A DNA stretch of 13,840 nucleotides, from UHGV virus genome UHGV-0179107; one strand, given 5' to 3'. Positions 433 through 12,145 of this stretch are shown here, one piece after another. The notes below the pieces were generated by a model. That model was not told the origin of the DNA and ran no database searches. It saw nothing but the letters and a program-made list of their open reading frames with translations. The stretch is from a virus. The position numbers and the translations under genes are program-made. Position 1 is the stretch's first letter. Each line of letters begins with the position of its first letter.

Positions 433-433
433 T

Positions 434-670: not shown

Positions 671-671
671 A

Positions 672-1061
672 TCATTTACCTTTACGCTTCAGTGGGCACT
701 TATCTCCCACAGACCATACAAAAATATAATGGCGCTTGCTTTCAGCTTTAGGATTTAATAATTCTTTATGCAAATATCCGGCTGAAAGCATTTTATCGAT
801 CAGGTTTTTCACTCTTTGCCCTTCCTCAAATGTTTGTGCTTTAAAATAGAGATTTGGGAAGTTCTGACCTGTATATTTTCCATCTTCATATAAGCGGGTG
901 CATACCCAGCGACATAAATCATCATCGTTAAGATCACTAACGTGTGGTTTATCCTCACTGCTAAATAACGCCTGTTTAAAACGGGAGTATTTAAACTCCC
1001 CATCTTCCAGGAAATCACCCTCATCGAACTCAACTATCATTTCTTCAATATTCATAGGCAT
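672..1061 (-). CDS. Hypothetical protein (129 aa), acidic N-terminus
   Basis: ORF track. AAGGA is only 1-2 nt from the ATG at 1061, so the second in-frame ATG at 1055 (spacing about 7) may be the true start. No family recognised. Confidence 0.55.
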   Translation of the reverse strand: MPMNIEEMIVEFDEGDFLEDGEFKYSRFKQALFSSEDKPHVSDLNDDDLCRWVCTRLYEDGKYTGQNFPNLYFKAQTFEEGQRVKNLIDKMLSAGYLHKELLNPKAESKRHYIFVWSVGDKCPLKRKGK

Positions 1062-1080
1062 ATCCTTTTAGATAAACGTG

Positions 1081-1122
1081 AAAAGTAAGATAAATAAAGG
1101 CACCCCCATTTTTTGAGGGTGC
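1081..1122 (-). terminator. Candidate intrinsic terminator or attenuator inside the leftward operon
   Basis: On the minus strand, a GC-rich 6-bp stem (GCACCC / GGGTGC, plus 1100-1105 and 1117-1122) starts 7 nt after the TGA of the 147-aa gene and is followed by UUUAUUUAUCUUACUUUU. The stem is short, so strength is uncertain. Confidence 0.4.
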
Positions 1123-1129
1123 TTATTAA

Positions 1130-1573
1130 TCATTCAAGATTGACCAGTTTGAGAGGCTTCACCGCCTGCAGCATGGCCTGCATCATTCCTACGCTTATTT
1201 CGAAGAGGTCTGCCATGTTTTGAAGGCTGGCACCTTCTGCCTCAATCATTGATTTGGAGAGCGCCGCGATCACGAATCCATCCTTGGCGTTATCCCACAT
1301 GCTGAGGAGGGGATCATCTCCGTGCTGGCGCATAAGGTCTTGAATCATCCACAATCTACATGCCATAACCACCAAATCGACATAAAAAACATCACCATTG
1401 GCGGACTTGCATTCAGCAAAAGCGTGATGCCTGTGTTTTAAGAAGTGCTCTTTGTCACGGGTAAATGCCAGGGTGTTGGTAAACTTGCCATCTAAAAGAT
1501 CCTGGCGAACTTTTGAATCTTCAGCGTCGATAGCTTTGATAACCTGGGATAATAATTTAGCGATTTGAGACAT
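1130..1573 (-). CDS. Hypothetical protein (147 aa)
   Basis: ORF track; AGGA 8 nt upstream of ATG 1573-1571. No family recognised. Confidence 0.6.
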   Translation of the reverse strand: MSQIAKLLSQVIKAIDAEDSKVRQDLLDGKFTNTLAFTRDKEHFLKHRHHAFAECKSANGDVFYVDLVVMACRLWMIQDLMRQHGDDPLLSMWDNAKDGFVIAALSKSMIEAEGASLQNMADLFEISVGMMQAMLQAVKPLKLVNLE

Positions 1574-1593
1574 TTGGAATTCCTTAAATTAGA

Positions 1594-1671
1594 GCCCCGG
1601 AAGGGGTTAAACTCGTGCAAGTAGCCCTCGTCTCGAGGGTGTTAAAGTGAGTCGAAAATAAATAAATAAAT
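1594..1671 (-). promoter_or_regulatory. Intergenic element inside the operon: two short GC hairpins plus an (AAAT)4 tract
   Basis: Seen directly: CCCC-GGAA-GGGG (1595-1606), CCCTCG-TCT-CGAGGG (1625-1639) and (AAAT)x4 (1656-1671), all within the 112-nt spacer between the 162-aa and 147-aa genes. Role (mRNA processing, stability or attenuation) is unknown. Confidence 0.3.
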
Positions 1672-1685
1672 CGAAGAGATAAAAC

Positions 1686-2174
1686 TTAGGCTTTCTGGGC
1701 CATTGCTTTCTGGACTTTATTTCTATGGCGGCGGTAGATGAATATAAATTCGCGATAAGCACGACTACCGGGCTTAGGCAAACGTTGATTAAGCTCCTTA
1801 CGTGGCAGGATTTCACTCAACAAGCCCCATATATGAAAGCAGGTTACTTTTAATTCTTTTGCTATCTCTTCAATATTCATCCCACAATTCCACATTAAAA
1901 GAGATTTGCGGCGGCGATCTTCGAAGACATTTTTATCTCTATCTATGTCGTTATAGACACTGAGGGGAACTCGACACCGTGGATTCCAGGACTCATTATA
2001 TAGTTTTTGGACTTTCTCAAGTTTAACGCCTGTATATTCCGCCACGAATTCAGGGGTAAAGCCCTCGACTAATAAGTGTTTAGCCTGTCGTGTTGGTTGA
2101 TCATCACTGGGAAGATATTTCTGCAGTGCTACCAGTTTTTCGAATTGAGAATCAGAAAGATTAGATTTGAACAT
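1686..2174 (-). CDS. Putative transcription regulator (162 aa) with two HTH-like segments; C-terminal part resembles Mor/C-family phage activators
   Basis: ORF track; GGAG upstream of ATG 2174-2172. The segment RKSLLMWNCGMNIEEIAKELKVTCFHIWGLL matches, from memory, the W-N-x-G-x-N...E-L-A...V-T motif of phage Mu Mor-type activators. The family call is tentative. Confidence 0.55.
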   Translation of the reverse strand: MFKSNLSDSQFEKLVALQKYLPSDDQPTRQAKHLLVEGFTPEFVAEYTGVKLEKVQKLYNESWNPRCRVPLSVYNDIDRDKNVFEDRRRKSLLMWNCGMNIEEIAKELKVTCFHIWGLLSEILPRKELNQRLPKPGSRAYREFIFIYRRHRNKVQKAMAQKA

Positions 2175-2287
2175 GATTAATTCTCCGAACGTTTAAAAGA
2201 TCAGGGCAATCAATCTAGTTCTAGTTCTATATGTAATTAGTTTATTTAGTTTATTTGGGATAACAGGGGAGGAGTAATAATCAAAAA

Positions 2288-2446
2288 TTAATAATCTTCA
2301 TCATAATCATCGTCAAATGTTCTTAACTCTGCAATATAACCGTCTTTCGCGGTATGCTCATAATATTCTTGAGTCTGTTTATCATAAGCCAAATCATCAA
2401 GATATTCTTTGCTAACAACCATATCGGTTAAATCTAAAGTTATCAT
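2288..2446 (-). CDS. Small acidic protein (52 aa), below the ORF-track length cutoff
   Basis: Hand translation: MITLDLTDMVVSKEYLDDLAYDKQTQEYYEHTAKDGYIAELRTFDDDYDEDY, with AAGGA about 8 nt upstream of ATG 2446-2444. It fills the gap between the 305-aa and 162-aa genes on the same strand. Confidence 0.35.
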   Translation of the reverse strand: MITLDLTDMVVSKEYLDDLAYDKQTQEYYEHTAKDGYIAELRTFDDDYDEDY

Positions 2447-2479
2447 AAGAGTTTTCCTTAATTAACTGAAAGGTAAAAA

Positions 2480-3397
2480 TTATTTATCAAGTAAAACCAT
2501 CTTGCCCTCTCTTAAGCGGCAATTTTGCCATGCTGGGAAGGGGTTCAATAAATCTCCGGGATTGGCTTCAGTGTCCACAATAATTTCTATCCCTTCGTTT
2601 TCTTTTAATAGATTTGCTAGACGAAAGGCTTGATCAGTAAGATGCCAATATTTAGCAGAATTCATTATTTTGCCATCAATGGTGCCTTTAATATTTTTCA
2701 TCACCTCATAGCCATAGATTTCATCACGCAATACGCTAAGTTTTACCCTTCCTTTACCTTTATATTTAGCTTTAGCTGCCAGATATGCCGCCTTTGCTTC
2801 AGAATTCGTCAGAACTGGATAACCGTAAAAATCTTTCTCACGTTTGCCAGCGTCTCTACGGCGTTCTCTGCGTTCTTTTTTAGGTTGGGAAGGGGATTGC
2901 ATTGCCTCGGGCTTTTCAGGCTGCTGTGCGGCTTGTTTTGGGGCTTCCTGAGGCTGTTCTACTTTAGCGGCAGTCTTTCCGAAAGTCTCTAAGATGCCTT
3001 CTGGAATATTTACGCCCTTCTCGATGCACATATCCAACAATTGATCAGGGGTTTTCAGCAATTCGTAATGATTAGATTTGCCTTTTTTAACAATTGAAAT
3101 AAGCCCAGCATTTTCAAGAGATTTAATAGCGCTGGCTATTTTCCCGCGATCCTTTCTGAGTTGAGTTGCCAGTTTTTGCTCTGAAATATAAATTCCCTCA
3201 CCGTTAAAATGAAAGCCCACCATTTTTCCATAAATTAACATTTCAAAGTCTGTTAAATAAAAGCGCTCTTTAACTGTTCCCGTCTTTTTATTAGAGATTG
3301 TTGTTGCTACCGGTTTATCAAAATCATACTGAATAAAGAAATCGAAAGAGGGGGTAAAAGGTGCCCCCAGTCTATTTCCTGCCATAATTTCCCCCAT
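2480..3397 (-). CDS. Putative iteron-binding replication initiator / replisome organiser (305 aa): N-terminal winged-helix domain, Q/P/E/K-rich linker, C-terminal domain
   Basis: ORF track. The N-terminal domain (KERFYLTDFEMLIYGKMVGFHF...ISEQKLATQL...AIKSLENAGLISIVKKGKSNHYEL) has the winged-helix layout of lambda-O / phage replisome-organiser type proteins, followed by a basic low-complexity linker (KKERRERRRDAGKREKD). ATG 3397 overlaps the TAA of the upstream paralog; an alternative start at 3385 gives matching MA-N N-termini in both paralogs. Confidence 0.65.
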   Translation of the reverse strand: MGEIMAGNRLGAPFTPSFDFFIQYDFDKPVATTISNKKTGTVKERFYLTDFEMLIYGKMVGFHFNGEGIYISEQKLATQLRKDRGKIASAIKSLENAGLISIVKKGKSNHYELLKTPDQLLDMCIEKGVNIPEGILETFGKTAAKVEQPQEAPKQAAQQPEKPEAMQSPSQPKKERRERRRDAGKREKDFYGYPVLTNSEAKAAYLAAKAKYKGKGRVKLSVLRDEIYGYEVMKNIKGTIDGKIMNSAKYWHLTDQAFRLANLLKENEGIEIIVDTEANPGDLLNPFPAWQNCRLREGKMVLLDK

Positions 3398-3783
3398 TAA
3401 TATATAAAATATTCTCTAATACCCTGCTCATCGCACATCTTGCCAAGCTGATCAGGGGTAATTAGCAATTCGTAGATATTCGATTTGCCCTGTTCTCGTT
3501 TAACGTTTATCAGACCTGCAGCTTCTAATGTTTTGATTGCCGACCTTACTGTTTTCTCTGTAACATCATAATCGTCTGCTAATGTCTGCGTCGAAAGCTC
3601 TGAGATAATTATTTCTTCACCCTCCTTAAAAGAATAACTTACCATTTCACCATAAATTGTTACCTCCAACAAATTTAAGTGAAATCTTTCTTTATTGGTT
3701 GCAGTTTTTGCAATCGGATTTTTAAAAGTGTATTTGATGAAACGTTTAAAAATGGGAGTAAAATTTTCATCGTTGTTTGCCAT
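3397..3783 (-). CDS. Truncated paralog of the adjacent initiator (about 128 aa): winged-helix DNA-binding domain only
   Basis: Clear paralogy with the N-terminus of the 305-aa protein (NFTPIFKRFIKYTF vs PFTPSFDFFIQYDF; GKSNIYELLITPDQLGKMCDEQG vs GKSNHYELLKTPDQLLDMCIEKG). The track start at 3798 is a TTG that overlaps the SD; ATG 3783-3781 with GGAGG 8 nt upstream is the likely start. Confidence 0.65.
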   Translation of the reverse strand: MANNDENFTPIFKRFIKYTFKNPIAKTATNKERFHLNLLEVTIYGEMVSYSFKEGEEIIISELSTQTLADDYDVTEKTVRSAIKTLEAAGLINVKREQGKSNIYELLITPDQLGKMCDEQGIREYFIY

Positions 3784-3807
3784 AATATGATCCTCCAAGA
3801 TTATTTA

Positions 3808-4017
3808 TCAAAGTAGGTGTTTATATCTTTCCAGCTCACGCTCGATGCGGATAAGGTTAAGTTTTTCTATTGCCGCTTCAATATGTGGGTATTTTCCTTT
3901 GTTACGACGGATAAAAGCATAAACAGAATTTTTATAGAACTTGCCGCTAAGCACGTTCTCTACGATTTCGTCAGTAGTCCAGTTTACCAGGGGGCTGACT
4001 GGCCCGTTGCTCGCCAT
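3808..4017 (-). CDS. Small protein (69 aa), first gene of the leftward operon
   Basis: ORF track; perfect AGGAGG (plus 4025-4030) 7 nt upstream of ATG 4017-4015. The opposite-strand ORF 3817..4077 is low-complexity and rejected. Function unknown. Confidence 0.6.
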   Translation of the reverse strand: MASNGPVSPLVNWTTDEIVENVLSGKFYKNSVYAFIRRNKGKYPHIEAAIEKLNLIRIERELERYKHLL

Positions 4018-4138
4018 AATGAGGCCTCCTATAATTCGAATCAGAATGATATACGGTTAAAAAGAAACGGGAACTAATAGCTCCCGCCAGTTAATTAAGG
4101 AAATCCACTATGATGACTTAGTGTATCCCTATGCTTTA

Positions 4139-4170
4139 TATTTTATCAGACATTCGTCAAATTGTCAACA
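4139..4170 (-). promoter_or_regulatory. Candidate sigma70 promoter for the leftward operon (-35 TTGACA, 17-nt spacer, -10 TAAAAT)
   Basis: Minus-strand reading: TGTTGACAATTTGAcgaatgtctgaTAAAAT. The first 14 nt are identical to the -35 region of the capsid promoter at 8017-8030, and the spacers are similar. About 115 nt of leader would precede ATG 4017. Confidence 0.4.
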
Positions 4171-4340
4171 ATCTTTTTGTATTTATCTATCATTTTTTCT
4201 TCAAGATTGTCGATTGCAGTCACTCCGGCTATGTAGGCAACACCGCACCACAGTACAGCCAGGTTGATGATCGCTATTGCATCAGTAATTTCCACATTGA
4301 CCTCCGGATCTGTTTCTCCCCCTATTTATAATCTTATCAT

Positions 4341-4489
4341 ATTGTCAACCAATTGTCAATGAGAATTATTATCATTTAGGTGTGCTATAGGTACAAGCAA
4401 GTCCACAGCAAAGGGGTAAGCATTATTAATGGCCCCTACCGTGTCAAAACCAAAATCACTTATAGCATTTATTCAATAAGATTGTCAAT
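4341..4489 (-). promoter_or_regulatory. Three further ATTGTCAA(C/T) sites (4341-4349, 4352-4360, 4481-4489), each a TTGACA hexamer on the minus strand
   Basis: Seen directly. With the site at 4161-4169 this makes four same-orientation copies in about 330 bp. Possible -10 elements are weak (TAAGAT, TATAAG), so these may be operators or secondary promoters. Confidence 0.35.
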
Positions 4490-4801
4490 GGCCCACAACA
4501 TGCCTTCCTGCAGAAGGTTTGATTTTAATCAAATCCACGAAGTGGACCACAGGAGGGAGAGCACTTTTTGCCTTAGGCGCTCTAAAATCAATTCTAACGC
4601 GATTTAGAGGTCAGGTAATGCAATTGCACTACTCACCACAGTTAATGCAGCCAGAAGGCCATTTAGGGGCCCTATTTTTGATTTATGAGTGTCATATTAC
4701 GTGCATGCACGCGCGGGAGACTCTTTGCTGCCTCCTTCCGGCGCTGGCAAGCTTTCGGCAGCGGTCCACATTGTGGGCCTCATGCTGACGCATTCGCCGG
4801 A

Positions 4802-4963
4802 CCCACACAGACCCGAAGGGCTTAGCCATGGGCTAAGGTGCCGTAGGCACTCCCACACACAATTGGGTGACGTGTCATGTATGGAATACATTGTCACCCC
4901 ACACACAGGCCGACGTAGTCGGTTTAGCTGTATAGCTAAAGTCACAAAGTGACCCACACACAG
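4802..4963 (+). repeat. Array of about 50-bp units, each beginning with CCCACACACAG and containing different short perfect palindromes
   Basis: Punctuation motif at 4802, 4852, 4898 and 4954. Palindromes: CTTAGCC-ATG-GGCTAAG (4821-4837), GTGCC-GTA-GGCAC (4838-4850), GGGTGAC...GTCACCC (4865-4899), CCGAC-GTA-GTCGG (4910-4922), TTAGCT-GTAT-AGCTAA (4924-4939), GTCAC-AAA-GTGAC (4941-4953). Confidence 0.6.
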
Positions 4964-4966
4964 ATT

Positions 4967-5003
4967 GCCTAAAGAGTCGCTCATGCTCTTTAGGCTTTCA
5001 TTT
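4967..5003 (+). terminator. Candidate intrinsic terminator closing the hairpin array
   Basis: Perfect 10-bp stem GCCTAAAGAG / CTCTTTAGGC (4967-4976 and 4986-4995) with a 9-nt loop, followed by TTTCATTT. The minus-strand side has no U-tract. Confidence 0.4.
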
Positions 5004-5124
5004 GTGGGTTAAGCTTTTCCCTTAGAAAACCTTCCCCACTCTCTGATCCCTCCCCATCCCCCCTTGTTGGGGGATTATAGGGGGAGTTCTTTTTATTGAT
5101 CTATTCTCTTTATCTATTAGTGTG

Positions 5125-5270
5125 GGAAATCCCAGCATATATATGTAGGAAATTCCCGCATATATATGTTGGAAATACCAGCATATCCCTTTCTGTGTAT
5201 GGTTGAATATGCGGGAAATTCCAGCATATCGATCCCTATGCATGTGGGAACATGTGGGAAATACCGACAG
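5125..5270. repeat. Iteron array, candidate replication origin: GGAAAT-N-CC-(A/C)-GCATAT repeats
   Basis: Four 16-bp copies at 5125-5140, 5148-5163, 5171-5186 and 5214-5229. The first three are spaced exactly 23 bp (about two helical turns), the fourth is 43 bp further. Degenerate copies follow (tandem CATGTGGGAA x2 at 5241-5260; GGAAATACCGACAG at 5257-5270; GGAAATATGCAGATC at 5403-5417). Confidence 0.55.
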
Positions 5271-6332
5271 GTCTGTGTGGCTTAATTTGACTTGATATTG
5301 ACTAACAAAGGCCTTCGTAGAAGGTTTGAGATGAGCTCAAATCACCATATGTGACTAACAAACCTCTCTCCTCTCTCTTTGCTTTGATTTTCTCTCATGT
5401 GTGGGAAATATGCAGATCAACACCCTTTGATTTTATCGACAGGTATGTTGACACGCCCTACGGTTGTGAGGCCCGGGCATCATAAGTATGGCCCCTGGGG
5501 CAGTCCATCCTTCCCTCACACAGGACAATGAATACACTCCTTGCAGTCATGAATACATAAAGAACATGAAAGACTGTTCACACCAACACGCCGATAAATT
5601 GCCTGAAGAGGCTTACATGGTGGGATTGTTGTGTGGGTAATAGTGATCATGCTAACAGATTATGTTAATCAGATGTAAATTCCGATTTTGTGGTCTGCAG
5701 ATAGCAAACTATACTGGTTAGATGATCAGGGGAATGACTACAAAACAATCAAAAATGTGGGATATAGACATCTATACTTCTAATGTGCTGTGTGGGGTGT
5801 TAGTGCGTCCTAACCTCTAAGTCATTGATTTTAAGTGTTGGGAGAGATGCATTTAACATAATAGATCTTATCTACACTAATAAAGCGCACTACAAAATCT
5901 GATTTAAAAATCATGATAAGGAGGCCCAGAATTTACGTACAGTCACCTGAATAAATAATGTGCACAACATACAGCAAAGCTTAAGAATTAACATAATAGC
6001 AACGTGGTCAGTAGTGGTGTGATATTTGAGAATTGTTAGAAGAAAAAAGGGAGGTGGGGGAGCGCCTGCCTGGCACCTCAGACGAACATCTGACGGGTAT
6101 TAATACCGCTAATGGATATTTCTGACACCCACACCCAAGACCGCTTTCAGCACATAGCCATACACCGCACAGGATGCAATTGTGATAACAAAAAATGGGG
6201 GTGTAATAGGGTAGGCTGTCTTTCATCAAAATCACTTCTACGACGTTACCAGAGTGATAACAAGAAAACAGGCCTCTAAGATTATCTGTGCCTCGTTTTT
6301 AGCTTTTTGTGTGGTTACCAGGTGAAGAGGAA

Positions 6333-6497
6333 ATGTTAAAAACTGTTCATTTTATGCACAAACTAGTCAGGGTGATACCACAAAATGAGGCGCAAGAAAT
6401 CCAGCTGCAGATAATCTTGCAGCCAGATTTTGCAGTTTTTGAGGGTATGTTAAATTTGACAAAAATAGAGAAAAGGCTTATTAAGATAACTTATTGA
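6333..6497 (+). CDS. Possible small ORF (54 aa from ATG 6333), weak
   Basis: ORF track 6309..6497 starts at a GTG; the internal ATG 6333 has GGTGA about 7 nt upstream. It is the only moderately plausible ORF in the 2.7-kb gap, with no recognisable family. Could be non-coding. Confidence 0.2.
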   Translation: MLKTVHFMHKLVRVIPQNEAQEIQLQIILQPDFAVFEGMLNLTKIEKRLIKITY

Positions 6498-6571
6498 TTT
6501 TATTAGTATTATGAAAAAGGGTTACACCCTCTCTCTTACTCTGTCAACCGGGCGGTTGTGGCATAAAACGG

Positions 6572-6697
6572 ATTAAATCAATAAATAGGCATTAAATACC
6601 CATTAAATACCCCTTAAATAGGGGTTAATTGCTCAGGACTGAAAGGAGTGTAAATAGGGGATAAATAGGGGTTAATTGAGGGATAAATAAAAAGGGG
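6572..6697. repeat. AT-rich direct-repeat cluster: TAAATAGGGGTTAATTG x2 plus shorter TAAATAGG and ATTAAAT copies
   Basis: 17-mer at 6615-6631 and 6662-6678 (47 bp apart); TAAATAGGGG at 6651-6660; TAAATAGG at 6582-6589; ATTAAAT at 6572, 6591 and 6603. Lies just beyond the terminator of the membrane-protein operon. Confidence 0.55.
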
Positions 6698-6710
6698 CCG
6701 TGATGGCCCC
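6681..6710 (-). terminator. Rho-independent terminator of the leftward HTH / membrane-protein operon
   Basis: Minus strand: GGGGCC-AUCAC-GGCCCC (plus 6694-6710) followed by UUUUUAUUUAU, starting 8 nt after the TGA at 6721-6719. Confidence 0.7.
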
Positions 6711-6718
6711 CTGGTAGG

Positions 6719-7237
6719 TCAGAACAGTTTTTTGCTTTTTCTCCAACTAACGCCGCGTTTGCCTATGCTCAGCCAGCCGCCAGCGAATCGGGTACCTGCG
6801 GTAACACTAGCTCCCCTGGTGCCTACATGTGCATAAATACCTGCCCCACTGCTACCACCGCTTCTACGGCTTTTTCCGCCATCGATATCGAGGAGAGCAC
6901 AGATTGCACCCCACAAAAAGCCAACCAACCAATATACATATGCTAAGCCTAAAACACCCCAGGTTACCGCCCACCCCTCTAGACTAGTGGGGAAGTAGAA
7001 AGCATTGAGAACAGCATTTATAGGACGGATCAGGAGAGAATCTATAAAACCAATATCCACATGAAACGGGCCATCACCGAACTTGCTACTGCCAATAAAC
7101 AAGGTAGCAGGGTAAAAACAGATAGCCATTAACCAAGGCCCGGCTATCAAAAACGCTGCAGTGTACTGAAAGAACATTTTTACCAGTTCTTTAAAAAGCC
7201 TTTTATTTACTGATTCTTTGTCTTTCTGGAATAACAT
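6719..7237 (-). CDS. Membrane protein (172 aa) with two predicted transmembrane helices and a Gly/Ser/Arg-rich C-terminal tail
   Basis: ORF track. Hydrophobic segments FFQYTAAFLIAGPWLMAICFYPATLFI and WAVTWGVLGLAYVYWLVGFLWGAICALL; tail GKSRRSGGSSGAGIYAHVGTRGAS...SWRKSKK. A purine-rich SD-like stretch precedes ATG 7237. No family recognised. Confidence 0.65.
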   Translation of the reverse strand: MLFQKDKESVNKRLFKELVKMFFQYTAAFLIAGPWLMAICFYPATLFIGSSKFGDGPFHVDIGFIDSLLIRPINAVLNAFYFPTSLEGWAVTWGVLGLAYVYWLVGFLWGAICALLDIDGGKSRRSGGSSGAGIYAHVGTRGASVTAGTRFAGGWLSIGKRGVSWRKSKKLF

Positions 7238-7294
7238 AGCGGTACCCCTTTGCGAGAAGTTGAATTTAGTTAATAACCTGTTGGACCGTTTACA

Positions 7295-7555
7295 TTACTT
7301 AGCTTTCTTGAATCTCCCGTCCTCCTTTCTTTCGATATTGTGGTAGTCGGCATAGGCTTTCAGCCTTCTGTGCACGGTGGCTATCCCCACACCGAAGGTT
7401 TTAGCAATAACCTGTCGTGGTGTTCCCTCCTCGACCATCTTAAACATCTGTGCCGCTACATCCATTTGTGCGGCTATCTCCATTTGCTTTGCCTTTGCTT
7501 TAACTTCAGCTATCAGCTCTTCCCTCAGTCTCCTGATATCTTTAGCCCCCGTCAT
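7295..7555 (-). CDS. Small DNA-binding protein (86 aa): N-terminal coiled coil, C-terminal resolvase/Hin-type HTH
   Basis: ORF track. The segment TPRQVIAKTFGVGIATVHRRLKAY fits the resolvase-type HTH pattern (IA...GV...TV.R.L). GAGGAG precedes ATG 7555-7553. Confidence 0.6.
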   Translation of the reverse strand: MTGAKDIRRLREELIAEVKAKAKQMEIAAQMDVAAQMFKMVEEGTPRQVIAKTFGVGIATVHRRLKAYADYHNIERKEDGRFKKAK

Positions 7556-7597
7556 AAACTCCTCTCAATGCTGTTCATAAACTCATCTCAATGATGA
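7552..7597. repeat. Tandem 23-bp duplication spanning the RBS and start codon of the HTH gene
   Basis: Plus strand TCATAAACTCCTCTCAATGCTGT (7552-7574) and TCATAAACTCATCTCAATGATGA (7575-7597). On the minus strand the upstream copy creates an 8-codon uORF (MNSIERSL) whose TGA overlaps the HTH start codon. Confidence 0.6.
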
Positions 7598-7656
7598 TTA
7601 ATACAAAATCTAAGACTACCAGACCTATTAAAAATGCTTTGCCTCCTTTGCCCATC

Positions 7657-7779
7657 TCATACCTCCACACACAGAGCTAACATCAGGGCTAACACTCCAA
7701 CCACCTCAATTGCCTTAACCATGTGTGGGTGATGAAACCTAGCCTTTTGCCATGCGCTGGCACTGTTCTTGATACCCAT
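7657..7779 (-). CDS. Possible small hydrophobic peptide (40 aa), below the ORF-track cutoff
   Basis: Hand translation: MGIKNSASAWQKARFHHPHMVKAIEVVGVLALMLALCVEV. Its 5-prime leader shares a 15-mer (plus-strand TTTGCGAGAAGTTGA at 7791-7805 and 7249-7263), within a roughly 26-nt homologous region, with the leader of the membrane-protein gene. Confidence 0.3.
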   Translation of the reverse strand: MGIKNSASAWQKARFHHPHMVKAIEVVGVLALMLALCVEV

Positions 7780-8016
7780 ATCTATAACCTTTTGCGAGAA
7801 GTTGATTTGTTTGCTCGGTTGGGTGCTATCAATGCTCCCCTTCCTTGATTCGAACTATAGCCGGGTAAATCCCCGGAAAACATTGATATTGATCAAAAGA
7901 TATCTATCACGAATGAAAAAGTTATGATAGATGCTATGAGATGACGTATTGATGGGATTGATAGAGGTCTGAAAATACCGTTACCACGCTAATTATTAGA
8001 ATTTATATAATCAGGG

Positions 8017-8047
8017 TGTTGACAATTTGAGAGAATACTGATATAAT
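8017..8047 (+). promoter_or_regulatory. Consensus sigma70 promoter upstream of the capsid genes
   Basis: TTGACA (8019-8024), 17-nt spacer, TATAAT (8042-8047), with an AT-rich UP-like tract upstream (7985-8015). The 14-mer TGTTGACAATTTGA (8017-8030) is identical to the reverse complement of 4157-4170. Confidence 0.6.
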
Positions 8048-8190
8048 ATACATATACACCGTAAATCTTTGGTGAAAGTGATTTGCCGTATTTTCCTCCA
8101 AAGTAAAGGCGACCAGGTAGCGGTGCCGCCTTATAAATAACACTACCCTGATCATCGTTGAGTGGTCGATTAATTCTCCTATTGGGCTAG

Positions 8191-8199
8191 TTATCCACA
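8191..8199 (+). promoter_or_regulatory. Perfect DnaA-box consensus TTATCCACA in the capsid leader
   Basis: Exact 9-mer seen directly. It overlaps the left arm of an 8-bp inverted repeat CCACACAG / CTGTGTGG (8195-8202 and 8221-8228). Only one copy, so a chance match is possible. Confidence 0.3.
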
Positions 8200-8366
8200 C
8201 AGTTTTCTTTTGCGGGTTTTCTGTGTGGGTAGCTATCCCGAAAGGTATTTCCCCGCTGATGTGACCGCAGCCTGAACTGATTCGGGGGAGTGCCTTTCGT
8301 GATAGTGCTCTCAAGCAACCGTAACCATGTGCTATCAGCCAACTTTGTTGGTTTTCCTCATGTGGA

Positions 8367-8396
8367 ATAGCCCCCGCTTGGACGGTGCGGGGCTAT
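8367..8396 (+). terminator. Terminator-like or attenuator hairpin in the capsid leader
   Basis: ATAGCCCC(C)GC / GCGGGGCTAT stem with one bulged C and a 9-nt loop, followed by a pyrimidine-rich but imperfect U-tract (CTCCCTCTTCTTAT). Lies between the promoter and the first capsid-module gene. Confidence 0.3.
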
Positions 8397-8525
8397 CTCC
8401 CTCTTCTTATATCAATCTCCCTTTTAATAGATTTCCGGCATAACTTTTCGGCCCGAGCCTGTCGTAGTTCTAGAGGTTATGCCGGAACTCTTTGAGGGGA
8501 GTTAATTTAAATCGCAGGTGATCAA

Positions 8526-8861
8526 ATGAGAGATATGACTATCCGCACACGCGGACACATCATTTCATACGCCGCAGATGAGCAATTCTCTATTCGTGAC
8601 GTGGAAGTGAAAAATAAAGTTAAGGCTGAGATCCCGGCCGGCACTGTTGTTGTGGTGACTGAGGCTGGCGAGGTTGAGACCTTCGTTAAAGCAACGCACA
8701 CCGGTAAAACTCCGCTGCTGGTTGTAGAACGTGCTGAGGTTGGTGATGCTTTTATCGTTGTTGCCAACAAAGGCTGTTATATCAATCCGGCCTACGTGGA
8801 TAAAGACGGCTTAGCCGCTGTTATCGCTGCCAGCAATGGCGATCTGCGTGTTGCACAATAA
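8526..8861 (+). CDS. Putative head decoration or accessory capsid protein (111 aa), immediately upstream of the major capsid gene
   Basis: ORF track; AGGTG 5 nt upstream of ATG 8526. Codon usage looks typical of highly expressed genes. Position and size parallel lambda D relative to E, but no direct sequence similarity was recognised, so the product call is positional. Confidence 0.55.
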   Translation: MRDMTIRTRGHIISYAADEQFSIRDVEVKNKVKAEIPAGTVVVVTEAGEVETFVKATHTGKTPLLVVERAEVGDAFIVVANKGCYINPAYVDKDGLAAVIAASNGDLRVAQ

Positions 8862-8872
8862 GGAGGTTGAAG

Positions 8873-9919
8873 ATGGCTAAAAAAGAATTCGAAGTTCGCG
8901 ATCTGTGTGGTCTGATTAAAGACATCCCGCTGGATAACCAGATTATTTCAGCAATGGATATCTTTAACACTACTGCTCTGTGCAATACCTTTAAATTTGA
9001 ATATGACAAAGTCCGCCAGGTGAAACAAACCGCTTTCGGTCAGTATCCGCGCTACGGTGAACAGATGGCGACCATTACCGCAGATGAGCGTGAAACGGGC
9101 ACGGGTGATATGGCATTCACTGCCGCATCCAGTGCTATTTATCCTTCTGACTGGCAGGGTATTCGTGTTCCGGGCAAAGATTCCGAAGAGAATTTAGAGT
9201 CTGTTACCGCTCGGCGTGTTATTCAGTTGGGTGAAGGCTTACGCCAGACCCATGAAGAAGCACGCCAGCTTGCTCTCTTTGAGAACAAAATTATCCTCAC
9301 CAAGGGTAAAGAACTGAATGTGTGCGAACTGCTGGGCGCACAGCAAACCACCTCGGAAGTGGATTTAGCTAAAGATATCCTTAAACAGCTGCAGGACCTG
9401 GTTGCACTGAGCAAGATTAAACAGCGTGGTGTCGTTCGCGCTCTTCGTGGTTTCACCCTGTTCTGCCGTGCTGAGCTCTTTGCTGCAATTCAGACTGATG
9501 AACTGTTGAGAAAAGTGCTGTTGTTCGGCAATCAGAATATTACCGACAAAGGTCTGATGTTCCCTGAGGATATTCTGCCGGGCTTCCCGACCTTCCGCAT
9601 TCCGGGCTTAGCCCTGCGTGTGGTGCAAATGGATAGTCTGCCAGAGAATACTGCTTATCTGGTCCCACAATTCCAGCCACATGCGTTAGGCGATATGGTG
9701 GGCGTTTATACTCAATTTTTCGGCCCTTGCGCTCGCAACTTGAAGCTTGCAAACGGCGCTGCACGTGAAGCTTTCATGTATATGGAAGAGTCCAGAGGTA
9801 AACGAGAAATCTTCATTGAATCCTCTTATGCTTTCATGAACATGATGCCTGAGGTTGTGGTTAAAGTGAGTGTTAGTAACTCCGCCGCCGCTGCTCTGGC
9901 AAAAGCCAAGGCTAAATAA
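8873..9919 (+). CDS. Major capsid protein, lambda gpE-like family (348 aa from ATG 8873)
   Basis: Track start 8867 is a TTG; ATG 8873 has a perfect AGGAGG 6 nt upstream. Size and the C-terminal LPENTAYLVP segment parallel lambda gpE (341 aa; LPDNTMVLG), recalled from memory. Confidence 0.8.
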   Translation: MAKKEFEVRDLCGLIKDIPLDNQIISAMDIFNTTALCNTFKFEYDKVRQVKQTAFGQYPRYGEQMATITADERETGTGDMAFTAASSAIYPSDWQGIRVPGKDSEENLESVTARRVIQLGEGLRQTHEEARQLALFENKIILTKGKELNVCELLGAQQTTSEVDLAKDILKQLQDLVALSKIKQRGVVRALRGFTLFCRAELFAAIQTDELLRKVLLFGNQNITDKGLMFPEDILPGFPTFRIPGLALRVVQMDSLPENTAYLVPQFQPHALGDMVGVYTQFFGPCARNLKLANGAAREAFMYMEESRGKREIFIESSYAFMNMMPEVVVKVSVSNSAAAALAKAKAK

Positions 9920-9950
9920 GGTCCTTCTTCGAAGGCCAAATAAAAGCAAA

Positions 9951-9999
9951 GGGAAGAGGTGAGAGATCGGGGATAGGTCTTTCCCTCTTCCCTTTTTTT
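9951..9999 (+). terminator. Strong rho-independent terminator after the major capsid gene
   Basis: GGGAAGAGG (9951-9959) pairs with CCTCTTCCC (9984-9992), followed by TTTTTTT (9993-9999). A small CCTTC-TTC-GAAGG hairpin (9923-9935) sits just after the stop codon. Confidence 0.7.
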
Positions 10000-10033
10000 A
10001 TTATCCCCGTCTTAAGTTTTTGAGGTGTCTTTT

Positions 10034-10285
10034 ATGAAAATTGTTTTATACGGCGACCGTGACGACGTGCCTTTTGATATTATCCATATCGATGACGAGG
10101 ATCTGCCGGAATTCCTGCGTATCTCCACATTTGCCGCCTGCTATGACGTTAGCCGCCAGGCTATGCACAAGTACCGTGAATATAATAAATGCACCTGGGC
10201 CGAGACTTTCGAACATTTTATTGCACGCAAACAAACCCAGGACCGCAAAAAAGCCCTGAATGCGCATAATCGTTTTGCAAAATAA
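10034..10285 (+). CDS. Small protein (84 aa), acidic N-terminus and a possible HTH
   Basis: Track start 10025 is a GTG; ATG 10034 has GAGGTG about 7 nt upstream. The segment LRISTFAACYDVSRQAMHKY looks HTH-like by eye. Function unknown. Confidence 0.5.
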   Translation: MKIVLYGDRDDVPFDIIHIDDEDLPEFLRISTFAACYDVSRQAMHKYREYNKCTWAETFEHFIARKQTQDRKKALNAHNRFAK

Positions 10286-10359
10286 CGATAGATAGCCCTG
10301 TCTTTTTATCAGAATTCACACAGGGCCACCAAAAGATTCAATTTGGAGGCATGTTTAAT

Positions 10360-11163
10360 ATGGCTAGTGATGCTCTGACAGCTGCAAAACAAGCTGAGTC
10401 GAGATCTCCTGCATTCACTGTTATGTGTGGGGGATATTCACAAAACAAAAATATAATGGATGGCTTCAACTATACCGATAATGTGGCTATCTTCTTTGAC
10501 TCTATCTCTGATGTCAGCTATTCGTTCCCTGTTGAGAAATCGAGCTATGCGGTCGAGGATGGCACCACCATGTCAGACCATGCCGTCATTAAAGATAAAT
10601 CTGTCAGCTTTACGGGTATTATTACCTCTTCCCCTCATATCATCCGGAAAGAGAACTACATTGACCGGAACACTGATCCAGATAATCCCCGTGAGTCTAT
10701 GCGCCCTGCTGCCGCTGTTCAGGCACTTATGGAAATGAGAGACAAGCGCCAGCTAGTCAGCCTGGTGAGTGAAGATGCCGGACTCCTTGAGAACTTCATC
10801 ATGACGAAATGTGAAGTTAAGCGTAGCTCTTCCTCTGGCGACTGCATCACTATTGATTGCACCTTTGAAGAATTCCGCACCTTCAAGGTGAAGATGGTCG
10901 AAAATGCCGGAGTCTTCACTAACAGCAAGAAGGTGAACAAAACACAGCAAAAGGGTGCTGTTAACAGTGCTAAAGAGGGTAGTAACGCTGGCAATGCTGC
11001 TACGAAATCCACCAGGGCTAAGCATCGCGGGGAATATGCACAGGGAGAGGCAGCGGGAAAGATTGCCGCAGGTGATAAGTCTGTTGTGTCGAACGAGTTC
11101 CACGAAACGATGATCGATAAGGCCAACATGTTGCTTGATGACATAACGGAGATCAATAAATGA
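10360..11163 (+). CDS. Phage morphogenesis-module protein of unknown role (267 aa), with a Lys/Ala/Gly-rich low-complexity C-terminus
   Basis: ORF track 10351..11163. GGAGG (10345-10349) is 1 nt from ATG 10351 but 10 nt from ATG 10360, so 10360 is preferred. The stop overlaps the next start (ATGA at 11160-11163). Confidence 0.55.
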   Translation: MASDALTAAKQAESRSPAFTVMCGGYSQNKNIMDGFNYTDNVAIFFDSISDVSYSFPVEKSSYAVEDGTTMSDHAVIKDKSVSFTGIITSSPHIIRKENYIDRNTDPDNPRESMRPAAAVQALMEMRDKRQLVSLVSEDAGLLENFIMTKCEVKRSSSSGDCITIDCTFEEFRTFKVKMVENAGVFTNSKKVNKTQQKGAVNSAKEGSNAGNAATKSTRAKHRGEYAQGEAAGKIAAGDKSVVSNEFHETMIDKANMLLDDITEINK

Positions 11164-11618
11164 GTCCTAAAGTCCGGTGCACCATAGACAAGCGCATGAT
11201 GGATAAGCTGCATAAAGAGCTCTCACAGATGGAAGGTGTAGCGGTTGGCTGGGATGACGGAAAGCACTATAGCGGCCTGAATTATGCCACACTGGCAGCA
11301 ATTCATTCTGAGGGGTGGGGTGATTTGCCTAAGCGCTCCTTTATGGAATCTGCACACGCTGCAATGCTCTATGAGAGCCTGAGACACACAAAAGCCCTGA
11401 TTAATGCAATCGTAAAGGGTGGAAGCTCTGAGGCCGTCAGGAAGCGAATTGGCAAGCGATACGCCGACATTTTGGAGACTATCCTGATTAGTGGGCAATT
11501 CAGCAATAACAAGGTATCCCCACAATGGGCAAGCTATAAAGGCTTCAATGATGCCATGCGCCACTATGATGATTTGATCGGTGCAATCAAATACTGGTCA
11601 AATGTGGGGAGAGGTTGA
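11160..11618 (+). CDS. Putative tail-completion / virion-morphogenesis protein (152 aa), HK97 gp10 / P2 gpS-like
   Basis: ORF track; translationally coupled to the upstream gene. The segment NYATLAAIHSEGWGDLPKRSF resembles the YA-x-IH-x-FG motif recalled for these head-tail joining families. Assignment is from memory, not a search. Confidence 0.55.
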   Translation: MSPKVRCTIDKRMMDKLHKELSQMEGVAVGWDDGKHYSGLNYATLAAIHSEGWGDLPKRSFMESAHAAMLYESLRHTKALINAIVKGGSSEAVRKRIGKRYADILETILISGQFSNNKVSPQWASYKGFNDAMRHYDDLIGAIKYWSNVGRG

Positions 11619-11959
11619 AAAAGACAATAGTGTTCTTTTGAGGCCGTAGTGATACACCACAAATCAGCCCCTTTCCACTTCTTTTTCTCGCGATTGGTCC
11701 CTTGTGAGAATCCTTTATCAGGTATGCATTGTCCCGTGCATGAGCGGTCGATAGAGCCAGCCTCTTTCCCGGACTGGTTAGGATTTAGTGCGCTGATTGA
11801 GCGCCGCTATCACTGTTAGCCTGTTTATCGTTGCCTGGTTTGTGCATCACTGCACCCCCTGGGCACCGGACCCGCCTCAAAGGTCGGATCATCACAATTG
11901 GCGGGGCGGTTTTATAGTCGCTTTAAGGTTTATAGGCCGGAGTTGACTTACCTTCCGGC

Positions 11960-12007
11960 AACCTGCTAACATTAGTCTCGCGAGAGGTTGATTTTTGTTA
12001 GCAGGTT
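11960..12007. repeat. Perfect 12-bp inverted repeat with a nested palindrome in the convergent intergenic region
   Basis: AACCTGCTAACA (11960-11971) and TGTTAGCAGGTT (11996-12007), separated by 24 nt that contain the 10-bp palindrome TCTCGCGAGA (11976-11985). Confidence 0.6.
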
Positions 12008-12036
12008 CGCCCCGCATCAAAAGGATACCGGAGAAG

Positions 12037-12067
12037 AGCCCCTTTGTTAACACTTAGGGGCTTTTTT
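12037..12067 (+). terminator. Intrinsic terminator, plus-strand orientation
   Basis: AGCCCCT (12037-12043) pairs with AGGGGCT (12056-12062) around a 12-nt loop, followed by TTTTT (12063-12067). The minus-strand side has an A-run before the stem and no U-tract after it. Confidence 0.5.
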
Positions 12068-12145
12068 CTTGCCTGGAGTTTATCCGGTTAAGCTAACTTA
12101 TTGATTTTGATCACAATATCAGTAAAGCTGCACTATCTTCCAGCA

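What the first reader, a model, noticed from the sequence alone, without database searches (positions are those of the whole stretch)
6572..6697. TAAATAGGGGTTAATTG repeat cluster next to the operon terminator
Two identical 17-mers and several partial copies form an AT-rich direct-repeat block. Blocks like this are typical of centromere-like partition sites, integrase arm-type sites or regulator binding arrays, yet no partition or integrase gene is in the window.
Basis: seen in the sequence. Interest (0 to 1): 0.45.

Follow-up and report, generated by a model that had tools for sequence, protein, structure and literature searches.

The report
Phased 11-bp protein-binding repeat array
A conserved run of short DNA repeats, spaced one turn of the helix apart, lies at the end of a small regulator operon on a 13.8-kb E. 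coli plasmid that looks like a phage satellite; it is most likely a docking site for a small DNA-binding protein that helps the plasmid persist, though a DNA-packaging signal is not excluded.

Summary
The unit is not a 17-mer but an 11-bp repeat, N-TAAAT-A-(G4 or C4). Nine copies lie in register in two blocks (6582-6636 and 6651-6694) and abut the minus-strand terminator at 6692-6712.

The window is a whole circular plasmid (about 13.8 kb) of an undescribed E. coli family. It carries capsid, tape-measure, Dit-like and Neck1-like genes, a Rep/iteron module, and no terminase, portal, integrase or partition NTPase. Its tail proteins and three short non-coding islands match virulent rV5-like phages, the probable helpers.

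All 28 relatives keep the array, in 15 layouts of 66-174 bp, and short-array length changes keep the 11-bp register. A deeply divergent lineage keeps array plus terminator although the DNA on both sides is unalignable. The Rep/23-bp iteron module is swapped between relatives while the array stays constant, so these are not Rep iterons. There is no integrase and no chromosomal copy, so they are not arm-type sites.

The best reading (about 0.35) is a one-face array for cooperative binding of a small HTH protein. The best candidate is the adjacent 86-aa Hin-like protein, and the function would be a centromere-like maintenance site resembling R388 stbS/StbA. A satellite-specific packaging site (about 0.2) and a regulatory site or roadblock (about 0.12) are not excluded.

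The parts
6573..6599 (+). Invariant left edge of the array, ATTAAATCAATAAATAGGCATTAAATA. It includes an out-of-register TAAATCAA and the first 11-bp unit.
   Evidence: Invariant apart from one C/T position in 21 distinct family sequences, while the 22 bp to its left are only 45% conserved. Retained from TTAAATAGGCAT onward in the deep lineage L092.
6582..6636 (+). Block 1: five 11-bp units in register (TAAATAGGCAT, TAAATACCCAT, TAAATACCCCT, TAAATAGGGGT, TAATTGCTCAG).
   Evidence: Unit logo from 91 units: T2 A3 A4 (A/T)5 T6 invariant, A7 86%, then 3-4 G or C.
6630..6650 (+). 21/22-bp second repeat type, TGMTCAKGACYGNARGGAGTG. There is one copy here and 0-3 in relatives. It shifts the register by 3 bp.
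   Evidence: Inverted copies lie at 5535-5552 and 5452-5469; the pattern occurs 3 times against 0.14 expected.
6651..6694 (+). Block 2: four 11-bp units in register (TAAATAGGGGA, TAAATAGGGGT, TAATTGAGGGA, TAAATAAAAAG). The last unit merges with the terminator U-tract.
   Evidence: Copy number is variable among relatives. The + strand has 18 G and 1 C over 6637-6691.
6692..6712 (-). Intrinsic terminator of the operon (small peptides, HTH_7, 172 aa): GGGGGCCATCACGGCCCC followed by TTTTTATTTAT.
   Evidence: Conserved in every relative, including L092. The last unit plus hairpin is 29/32 identical to a terminator of rV5-like phage FV3 (14022-14052).
6487..6499 (-). IHF-consensus site AATCAATAAGTTA (WATCAANNNNTTR), inside a 21-bp sequence duplicated at 12088-12108.
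   Evidence: TATTGATTTTA is invariant within an otherwise variable stretch. Absent in L092, so it is accessory at most.
6542..6548 (+). Invariant TGTCAAC island between the IHF-like site and the array. It reads TTGACA on the minus strand, with no conserved -10.
7295..7555 (-). [quoted passage not shown] It is the best candidate binder of the array.
   Evidence: Pfam HTH_7 E 1.2e-6. Hin DNA-binding domain E 1.4e-3. AF2 model pLDDT 84 with helices 3-42, 47-54 and 58-72. The HTH is invariant in the family. The recognition-helix core IATV-RRL--Y is kept at 58% overall identity in L092.
6719..7237 (-). Variable 172-aa predicted membrane protein (cargo). It is the last gene of the operon and ends 7 bp before the terminator.
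   Evidence: no family hit. It is replaced by 165-236-aa variants in relatives.

Best explanation
The block is a selected, cis-acting array of at least five same-orientation recognition sites, each TAAAT(A) followed by a 3-4-bp G or C tract. The sites are spaced 11 bp apart, so they all face one side of the helix.

A small helix-turn-helix protein binds one site per turn and polymerises cooperatively along or around the DNA. The best candidate is the 86-aa protein (long helix plus Hin-like HTH) encoded in the operon that terminates at the array.

The resulting nucleoprotein complex acts as a plasmid-maintenance site. It would be a centromere-like handle of the NTPase-free kind known from R388 StbA/stbS and pSK1 Par. 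It would let this 13.8-kb satellite-like plasmid be inherited while it waits for a helper phage. The terminator shields the site from read-through transcription.

Shown: the phased array, its conservation, its independence from Rep, and the adjacent HTH gene.

Inferred: which protein binds it, and that the output is segregation.
For: - Strict 11-bp periodicity far above chance.
- The array is present in all 28 relatives, in 15 architectures of 66-174 bp with at least 5 in-register units. The short arrays differ by whole 11-bp units, and added 22-bp elements leave the 3-bp offset between blocks unchanged.
- The left 27 bp are invariant apart from one C/T position, although the neighbouring 110 bp vary.
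- In the deep lineage L092, coding DNA is 66-84% identical and the 1.2-kb non-coding flank is unalignable. Array plus terminator is still 84-92% identical, with the same order of unit variants.
- Rep genes and the 23-bp iterons are exchanged among relatives while the array is constant, so the binder is not Rep.
- The adjacent 86-aa protein is an HTH_7/Hin-type DNA binder. Its HTH is invariant in the family, and its recognition-helix core is kept in L092.
- Its layout (long helix, then two short helices) is the same as that described for StbA(1-75) (10.1101/2022.04.29.490116).
- R388 stbS consists of two sets of five 9-bp repeats spaced by 2 bp, an 11-bp period. It works with a single HTH protein and needs no plasmid NTPase (PMC3098194).
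- The element occurs only as a 13-14-kb plasmid (0 chromosomal places; 194 of 228 index blocks hold 10-20-kb contigs). It therefore needs a means of inheritance.
Against: - There is no ParA, ParM or TubZ anywhere in the element, so the canonical partition definition is not met.
- The array lies downstream of the operon's terminator, not over its promoter. No TAAATA-type units occur upstream of the HTH_7 operon, so the usual centromere/autoregulation coupling is absent.
- No sequence or fold match to StbA, ParR or ParB was found, only generic HTH matches.
- The units are almost unchanged in L092 although the candidate binder is only 58% identical there. That fits a conserved host or helper factor at least as well.
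- The Rep module diversifies among relatives, as expected under incompatibility pressure, but the array does not.
- Plasmid copy number is unknown.
- One metagenomic variant with a 9-residue deletion in the HTH still keeps the array.
Confidence: 0.35

Rival explanations
1. Satellite-specific packaging-recognition site (pac-like). A small-terminase-like protein ring, either the 86-aa HTH protein or a helper protein, wraps the phased repeats and recruits the helper's large terminase to package the 13.8-kb genome into small capsids built from the element's own capsid protein.
For: - The element has capsid, decoration-like, Dit-like, Neck1-like and tape-measure genes but no terminase or portal. 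It must therefore be recognised by a helper's packaging motor.
- Genome size is tightly constrained at 13.2-14.3 kb.
- The array keeps its sequence while element proteins diverge, as expected if a conserved partner reads it.
- SaPI-type satellites place their own pac next to their own terS (own knowledge).
Against: - The motif TAAATAGGGG/CCCC is absent from the whole genome of the rV5-like phage FV3, the probable helper type. The array is therefore not a copy of a helper pac.
- No part of 6440-6720 matches any phage beyond the terminator hairpin.
- Copy number and inserts vary between relatives, which is unusual for packaging signals.
- The 86-aa protein is shorter than known small terminases, and its HTH is C-terminal to the helix rather than N-terminal.
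- Other conserved non-coding stretches (8050-8525, 4611-4964, 6020-6045) are equally good or better pac candidates.
Confidence: 0.2
2. Regulatory filament site of the Cox/Apl/Xis type, or a transcriptional roadblock or insulator. A small HTH protein from the element or the helper coats the array. It would then switch or silence transcription across the boundary between the cargo operon and the large non-coding block, or sense helper infection as P2 Cox does at P4 PLL.
For: - Cox-box arrays have at least 6 copies, 10-11 bp spacing and a 91-aa protein. They trigger the satellite P4 (PMC3936717).
- The units TTAAATACC (6592, 6603) match the cox-box TTAAA(G/C)NC(A/C) with one mismatch.
- The array sits exactly at a transcription boundary, next to a terminator.
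- An invariant TTGACA on the minus strand (6542-6548) lies just left of the array.
Against: - Cox-box matches with one mismatch or fewer occur 69 times in the window against 50 expected, and only 2 of 9 units qualify, so the match is not significant.
- No conserved -10 accompanies the TTGACA, and no promoter is predicted at the array.
- The single extra TAAATAGGGG at the early promoter (4319-4328) is not conserved in divergent relatives.
- The probable helper is rV5-like, not P2-like.
- There is no integrase, so there is no excision role.
Confidence: 0.12
3. Terminator-derived tandem amplification with only a generic role: a C-rich, G-poor Rho-loading (rut-like) backup terminator on minus-strand read-through RNA, or no function. 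The GGGG-TAAATA junction of a phage-type terminator was amplified by slippage.
For: - FV3 has a single-copy GGGGTAAATAAAAAGGGGCC...GGCCCC terminator that is 29/32 identical to the last unit plus hairpin.
- The first 78 nt of minus-strand read-through RNA have 24 C and 3 G. Both unit types in the terminator-proximal part are G-rich on the + strand.
- Copy number varies by whole units.
- Tandem TAAATAGGGG pairs arise in many unrelated genomes.
Against: - Slippage products should be homogeneous and labile. Here the units are heterogeneous (GGCAT, CCCAT, CCCCT, GGGGT) and their order is conserved even in L092.
- The most conserved part (left block) contains both C and G tracts.
- Short arrays give C/G ratios of only 1.0-2, so C-richness is not a conserved property.
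Confidence: 0.1
4. Host nucleoid-protein site or bent DNA. The phased A/T blocks, with the neighbouring IHF-consensus site, form a bent or H-NS/IHF/Fis-bound architectural element without an element-specific binder.
For: - An IHF consensus at 6487-6499 is conserved within a variable stretch.
- AAATCAATAAATAG at the array edge is one mismatch from the IHF consensus.
- GATAAAT resembles the H-NS nucleation motif (own knowledge).
- The sequence is constant across diverged lineages, which fits a host factor.
Against: - A wedge-model curvature scan gives only about -1.5 to -2 SD at the array. The strongest predicted bend is at 6326-6423 instead. The model parameters were recalled from memory.
- TpA steps interrupt the A-tracts.
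- The IHF-like site is missing in L092 while the array is kept.
- G4/C4 tracts are atypical for H-NS targets.
Confidence: 0.08
5. Replication iterons (a second origin or a crr-like site), or integrase arm-type sites.
For: - Direct repeats near an IHF-like site occur in iteron origins and in attP arms.
- P4 has a second iteron site, crr, distant from its ori (own knowledge).
Against: - The Rep genes and the 23-bp iterons at 5121-5278 are swapped together among relatives while the array is unchanged.
- The 11-bp motif is unrelated to the iteron motif.
- There is no integrase.
- The element is never chromosomal in 5,426 genomes.
Confidence: 0.03

Closest known systems
R388 stbS (stbDRs) with StbA, an NTPase-independent plasmid segregation system
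   Same: - Direct repeats with an 11-bp period (9 bp plus 2), arranged in two sets (5+5, against 5+4 here).
- Bound cooperatively by one small HTH protein whose DNA-binding domain is a long helix followed by two short helices.
- No plasmid NTPase is required (PMC3098194; 10.1101/2022.04.29.490116).
   Different: - stbS overlaps the stbA promoter and StbA autoregulates. Here the array lies after the operon terminator.
- The motif differs (TTGCATCAT).
- No sequence or fold-search link between the 86-aa protein and StbA.
- Most relatives have a single set of 5-6 units.
R1 parC with ParR (type II partition); also the pSK1 Par single-protein system
   Same: parC consists of ten 11-bp iterons in two groups of five, bound by a small protein that forms a helical or ring-like complex (own knowledge). 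pSK1 Par is a single HTH plus coiled-coil protein with upstream direct repeats (mentioned).
   Different: - ParR is a ribbon-helix-helix protein and needs the actin-like ParM. No such gene exists here.
- parC flanks the promoter.
P2 Cox / 186 Apl / lambda Xis binding arrays (cox-boxes), including the Cox site at satellite P4 PLL
   Same: - At least 6 sites at 10-11-bp spacing.
- A binder of about 90 aa that forms a filament and wraps DNA.
- Used by a satellite to sense its helper (PMC3936717).
- The units begin TTAAA, like the cox-box.
   Different: - The consensus match is not significant.
- No promoter or att site lies at the array, and there is no integrase.
- The helper appears to be rV5-like rather than P2-like.
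pac sites read by small terminases (SPP1/SF6 pacL-pacR; SaPI terS/pac)
   Same: Phased short repeats on bent DNA next to a gene for a small HTH protein, in an element that must be packaged by a borrowed motor (own knowledge).
   Different: - No terminase homology for the 86-aa protein.
- The motif is absent from the candidate helper genome.
- Copy number is variable.

Membership tests
Plasmid partition locus (types I-III) | Cis-acting centromere of repeated binding sites | tested here: met
   Nine in-register 11-bp units. The array is conserved in 28 relatives.
Plasmid partition locus (types I-III) | Partner NTPase (ParA Walker ATPase, ParM actin-like or TubZ tubulin-like) in the same operon | tested here: not met
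   Seventeen ORFs were scanned against Pfam, ten of them also against PHROGs, and six against PADLOC. None is an NTPase. The only proteins over 200 aa are Rep, the capsid protein, the Dit-like protein and the tape-measure protein.
Plasmid partition locus (types I-III) | Adjacent gene for a centromere-binding protein that binds the repeats | tested here: inconclusive
   An 86-aa HTH_7 protein is encoded 600 bp away in the operon ending at the array. Binding cannot be tested in silico.
Plasmid partition locus (types I-III) | Stabilisation in cis and incompatibility in trans | not testable with these tools
   Needs plasmid-loss and incompatibility assays.
StbA/stbS-type NTPase-free segregation | Arrays of direct repeats with an 11-bp period, in sets of about five | tested here: met
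   Arranged 5+4 in the window and as 5-9 in-register units in relatives. Compared with PMC3098194.
StbA/stbS-type NTPase-free segregation | Binder homologous to StbA | tested here: not met
StbA/stbS-type NTPase-free segregation | Site overlaps the operon promoter; the protein autoregulates | tested here: not met
   The array lies downstream of the terminator. No TAAATA-G/C units occur in 7556-8020.
Cox-box array (P2 Cox type) | Units match TTAAA(G/C)NC(A/C) | tested here: not met
   Only 2 of 9 units match with one mismatch or fewer. Such matches occur 69 times in the window against 50 expected.
Cox-box array (P2 Cox type) | At least 6 sites at 10-11-bp spacing | tested here: met
   compared with PMC3936717.
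Iteron origin (Rep-binding repeats) | Repeats co-vary with the cognate Rep protein | tested here: not met
   The Rep/iteron module 2200-5350 is replaced among relatives while the array is constant.
attP arm-type sites | Tyrosine integrase gene and integrated copies | tested here: not met
   No integrase. All 9 matching places in 5,426 E. coli genomes are on plasmids.
pac/cosB packaging site | Same recognition motif present in the helper phage genome | tested here: not met
   No TAAATAGGGG or TAAATACCCC occurs in the 136,947-bp FV3 genome. Only one rV5-like representative was scanned.
pac/cosB packaging site | Packaging initiates or DNA ends map at the site | not testable with these tools
   Needs virion DNA sequencing.
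Intrinsically curved DNA | Predicted curvature far above the genome background | tested here: not met
   The wedge-model end-to-end ratio is 0.90-0.95 at the array, against a mean of 0.96 with SD 0.026. The strongest predicted bend is at 6326-6423. The model parameters were recalled from memory.

The most novel reading that the evidence does not exclude
The 86-aa coiled-helix/HTH protein and the 11-bp array form a minimal two-part module with no NTPase. It would either tether and segregate a plasmid-borne satellite of virulent rV5-like myoviruses, or mark it for packaging. The satellite brings its own capsid, Dit-like, neck and tape-measure genes. Plasmid-resident satellites of lytic coliphages are essentially undescribed, and this array would be their key cis-acting site.
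Probability: 0.3. Interest if true: 0.65.

Novelty: new member of a known kind. Interest (0 to 1): 0.42.

Why it matters
Phased direct-repeat arrays read by small proteins are a known design (parC, stbS, cox-boxes). The array itself is therefore a new example and not a new principle.

Its value lies in its context. It is the best-conserved non-coding feature of an undescribed, E. coli-restricted family of 13-14-kb plasmids that look like satellites of virulent rV5-like phages. [quoted passage not shown]

Knowing whether this site mediates inheritance or packaging would show how such an element persists and spreads. It would also provide a handle, the array plus an 86-aa protein, for testing NTPase-free segregation outside R388 and pSK1.

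Tried and rejected
1. Promoter-operator link. The only extra exact TAAATAGGGG (4319-4328, minus strand, at the +1 of the early promoter) is not kept in divergent relatives.
2. Intrinsic curvature. The wedge model gives no exceptional bend.
3. RNA families and tRNAs. Nothing at the array; there is only a sub-threshold ctRNA-like hit at 12032-12072.
4. Hairpin or RNA reading of CCCCTTAAATAGGGG. The C-tract units are absent in several relatives (L001, L004), so there is no conserved stem.
5. G-quadruplex. A motif appears only with loops up to 12 nt, and many relatives have just three G-tracts.
6. Xer/dif-like core at GGTATGTTAAAT (6445-6456). The XerC arm does not match (by inspection).
7. Lambda or P2 cos similarity around 6549-6562 and 11900. 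It is not conserved and gives no BLAST hit.
8. L010/L011, a lambda-like contig with TTAAATAGGGG x2. It is not enterobacterial and is unrelated.
9. About 55 unrelated metagenomic or genomic contigs with tandem TAAATAGGGG. They share no neighbouring protein family.
10. Co-variation of the binder with the site. It is impossible within the family because the HTH is invariant. In L092 both the site and the recognition-helix core are retained.
11. Distant sister elements found through the capsid protein (P0028, P0029). Their contigs are too short or lack the HTH_7 and array region.
12. Copy number from the literature. No data were found.
13. The co-resident 100-kb plasmid of strain RM10740 as helper. 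It is an IncFII virulence plasmid, not a phage-plasmid.
14. T4-type late-promoter (TATAAATA) decoy idea. Units rarely match, and the G/C-tract motif is absent from FV3.

Full report
**1.

The two 17-mers TAAATAGGGGTTAATTG are at 6615-6631 and 6662-6678. They are part of a finer pattern, an 11-bp unit N-TAAAT-A-(G or C)3-4.
- Five units are in register at 6582-6636 and four at 6651-6694.
- A 21-bp element, TGCTCAGGACTGAAAGGAGTG, separates the blocks and offsets the register by 3 bp.
- The last unit, TAAATAAAAAG, runs into the stem of the minus-strand terminator (6712..6692).

The periodicity is far above chance.
- Lag-11 self-identity is 0.58, against 0.26 +/- 0.05 for all 120-bp windows of the element. 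No other place exceeds 0.39, and 0 of 20,000 Markov simulations reach it.
- TAAATASSSS occurs 5 times against 0.5 expected.

**2. What the window is**

The window is a circular permutation of a complete element. Joining its two ends gives a 714-codon open frame with tape-measure homology.

It is 91-95% identical to non-mobilizable E. coli plasmids of 13.2-13.7 kb. One further record is a 39.6-kb trimer. In 5,426 complete E. coli genomes it occurs in 7, always on plasmids. The public index lists its HTH protein in 228 blocks, 194 of them with 10-20-kb contigs.

Minus-strand genes:
- a 49-aa and a 69-aa protein;
- two winged-helix Rep/O-like proteins;
- several small proteins;
- the tape-measure protein.

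Plus-strand genes:
- a 111-aa protein;
- a 350-aa capsid protein, whose distant relatives carry Pfam Phage_cap_E;
- a Dit-like protein;
- a 152-aa protein.

A short minus-strand operon encodes small hydrophobic peptides, an 86-aa HTH_7 protein and a variable 172-aa membrane protein. This operon ends at the array.

The element has no terminase, portal, integrase or partition NTPase. A 2.5-kb stretch (4017-6570) has no credible ORF.

**3. Probable helper**

- The Dit-like protein is 50% identical (E 6e-61) to the gene next to the tape-measure gene of the virulent rV5-like phage FV3.
- The 152-aa protein is 45% identical (E 2e-34) to FV3's Neck1/tail-completion protein.
- The tape-measure proteins align at 26%.
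- Three short non-coding islands are also shared with FV3:
  - 4710-4772, with compensatory changes in a helix;
  - 6021-6044;
  - 6679-6710, the last unit plus terminator.

I found no paper describing this plasmid family or any satellite of rV5-like phages.

**4. Conservation of the array**

In 28 relatives the array is always present, in 15 architectures of 66-174 bp.
- In the 26 relatives tabulated and in L090, it starts with ATTAAATCAATAAATAGG(C/T)ATTAAATA. L092 lacks the TAAATCAA edge and starts at TTAAATAGGCAT.
- Every one has at least five in-register units. The short arrays differ by whole 11-bp units, and extra 22-bp elements leave the 3-bp offset between blocks unchanged.
- In 91 units, T2 A3 A4 (A/T)5 T6 are invariant. 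The following tract is G or C, with no strand preference overall.
- Across 21 distinct sequences the 110 bp to the left are variable (majority fraction 0.45-0.83). The exceptions are TATTGATTTTA, the core of an IHF consensus on the minus strand (6487-6499), and TGTCAAC. The first 27 bp of the array are invariant apart from one C/T position.

The strongest evidence comes from the deep lineage L092.
- Its coding DNA is 66-84% identical to the window, and the HTH_7 protein is 58% identical.
- The 1.2-kb non-coding flank does not align and the cargo gene is different.
- It still keeps TTAAATAGGCAT TAAATACCCAT TAAATAGGGGT TAAATAGGGGA TAAATAAAAAGGGGCC..., with the same order of unit variants.

This rules out a recent neutral slippage product.

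**5. What the array is not**

*Not Rep iterons.* A separate array of five 23-bp repeats, TGTGGGAAATYCCAGCATATATA, lies at 5121-5278. It varies together with the Rep genes between relatives, while the 11-bp array stays the same.

*Not arm-type sites.* There is no integrase, and the element is never chromosomal.

*Not a copy of a helper motif.* TAAATAGGGG and TAAATACCCC do not occur in the FV3 genome. No other phage or plasmid matches the region.

*Not a significant cox-box array*.

*Not exceptionally curved* by a wedge model.

*Not tied to the early promoter.* The copy at 4319 is not conserved.

**6. Candidate binder**

The 86-aa protein matches Pfam HTH_7 (E 1.2e-6). Its closest solved relative is the Hin DNA-binding domain (E 1.4e-3), which reads about 12 bp through a recognition helix plus minor-groove arms in A/T DNA (the Hin binding mode is from my own knowledge).

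The AF2 model (pLDDT 84) has a 40-residue helix, then a two-helix HTH and a basic tail. That order of elements is the one reported for StbA(1-75). Fold searches return only generic HTH domains.

The HTH is invariant in the family, and its core is kept in L092. This is compatible with the constant TAAAT core but does not prove binding. The near-identity of the sites across a 42% protein divergence fits a host or helper reader equally well.

**7. Mechanism and ranking**

What is shown: a selected array of identical-orientation sites on one face of the helix, placed directly behind a terminator and next to a small HTH gene.

What is inferred: cooperative, filament-like or wrapping binding, as for StbA on stbS (two sets of five 9-bp repeats spaced by 2 bp; PMC3098194), ParR on parC, or Cox on cox-boxes (PMC3936717).

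I rank the functions as follows.
- **Centromere-like maintenance site, about 0.35.** The element lives only as a plasmid, the architecture is the classic direct-repeat centromere design, and NTPase-free precedents exist.
- **Satellite-specific pac site, about 0.2.** The element must be packaged by a borrowed motor and has a tightly bounded size. However, the helper lacks the motif and the array varies in copy number.
- **Regulatory filament or roadblock, about 0.12.**
- **Terminator-derived amplification with a generic, rut-like role or none, about 0.1.** The terminator-proximal read-through RNA has 24 C and 3 G in the window, but this is not consistent in short arrays.
- **Host nucleoid-protein site, about 0.08.**
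- **Iterons or arm-type sites, about 0.03.**

**8. Origin of the repeat**

FV3 has a single-copy terminator, GGGGTAAATAAAAAGGGGCCGTTTGGCCCC, that is 29/32 identical to the last unit plus hairpin. The array therefore probably arose by amplification of the GGGG-TAAATA junction of a phage-type terminator and was then fixed by selection.

**9. Verdict**

The array is real, conserved and phased. It is a new member of a known kind of cis-acting site.

The more unusual finding is the host element, an apparently undescribed plasmid-borne satellite related to rV5-like phages.

Noticed in passing
window 1-13840 (whole element): The window is a complete circular element of about 13.8 kb from an E. coli-only family that exists only as plasmids. 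It encodes capsid, decoration-like, Dit-like, Neck1-like and tape-measure proteins plus Rep, but no terminase or portal. Its tail proteins are 45-50% identical to those of the virulent rV5-like phage FV3. It looks like an undescribed plasmid-borne satellite of Vequintavirus phages. The capsid protein has only 29 relatives among 1.84 billion cluster representatives.
   Followed up: partly
window 5121-5278 (plus an extra copy near 5400): Five 23-bp iterons, TGTGGGAAATYCCAGCATATATA, spaced 23, 23, 43 and 43 bp. They are the probable origin. This region and the Rep genes (2200-4100) are exchanged as a module among relatives.
   Followed up: partly
window 4611-4995: A GC-rich, hairpin-dense stretch with four CCCACACACA motifs 46-54 bp apart, ending in a plus-strand terminator-like hairpin (4967-4995). 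It is 87-89% conserved in the deep lineage L092. The segment 4710-4772 is 84% identical to an intergenic region of rV5-like phages next to their 'replication initiation protein' gene, with compensatory changes (GCTGCC/GGCAGC against CCGAC/GTCGG). It may be a shared structured RNA. Rfam gives no hit.
   Followed up: partly
window 5350-6500: A 1.15-kb block without a conserved ORF. It is 93-99% identical among close relatives but unalignable in L092, except for small islands at 5497-5532, 6020-6045 and 6278-6318. The 24-bp island 6021-6044 is 96% identical to a site inside FV3's own 2.27-kb CDS-free gap (104328-106594).
   Followed up: partly
window 6481-6501 and 12088-12108: A 21-bp sequence, TTAAG(A/C)TAACTTATTGATTTT, is duplicated in direct orientation 5.6 kb apart. 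Each copy contains a perfect IHF consensus (AATCAATAAGTTA, minus strand). The second copy follows a strong plus-strand terminator at 12036-12066.
   Followed up: no
window 4137-4182 and 8005-8050: Inverted 46-nt similarity covering two near-consensus sigma-70 promoters, (GT)GTTGACAATTTGA...TAAAAT and ...TATAAT. One drives the early/tail operon and the other the capsid operon, which suggests a common operator.
   Followed up: no
window 5452-5469, 5535-5552 and 6633-6650: An 18-bp motif, TCAKGACYGNARGGAGTG, occurs once in the array spacer and twice in inverted orientation 1.1 kb to the left (3 matches against 0.14 expected). Relatives carry 0-3 tandem copies in the array, some of them with GATC sites.
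   Followed up: partly
window 7552-7800: Duplicated ribosome-binding-site and start regions (7552-7573/7575-7596 and 7224-7266/7766-7808), and two or three tiny hydrophobic ORFs (21-40 aa) upstream of the HTH_7 gene.
   Followed up: no
loci L018-L075 (metagenome and GTDB contigs): Tandem (A/G/T)TAAATAGGGG(G/A) arrays of 2-6 units occur in about 55 contigs from unrelated phyla. Many end in GGGGACAG followed by a palindrome (for example AAATAGGGACAGACACCTATTT). No neighbouring protein family is shared at BLASTP 1e-5. This recurrent repeat type is unexplained.
   Followed up: partly
NZ_CP043822.1 (L003): The 39.6-kb 'plasmid' p3RM10740 is a head-to-tail trimer of a 13.2-kb family member. It is either an assembly of multimers or a real multimeric form.
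   Followed up: no
window 3015-3087 and 3422-3494: The 133-aa winged-helix gene is a partial duplicate of the N-terminal part of the 305-aa Rep gene (71% over 73 nt). It is present in only some relatives.
   Followed up: no
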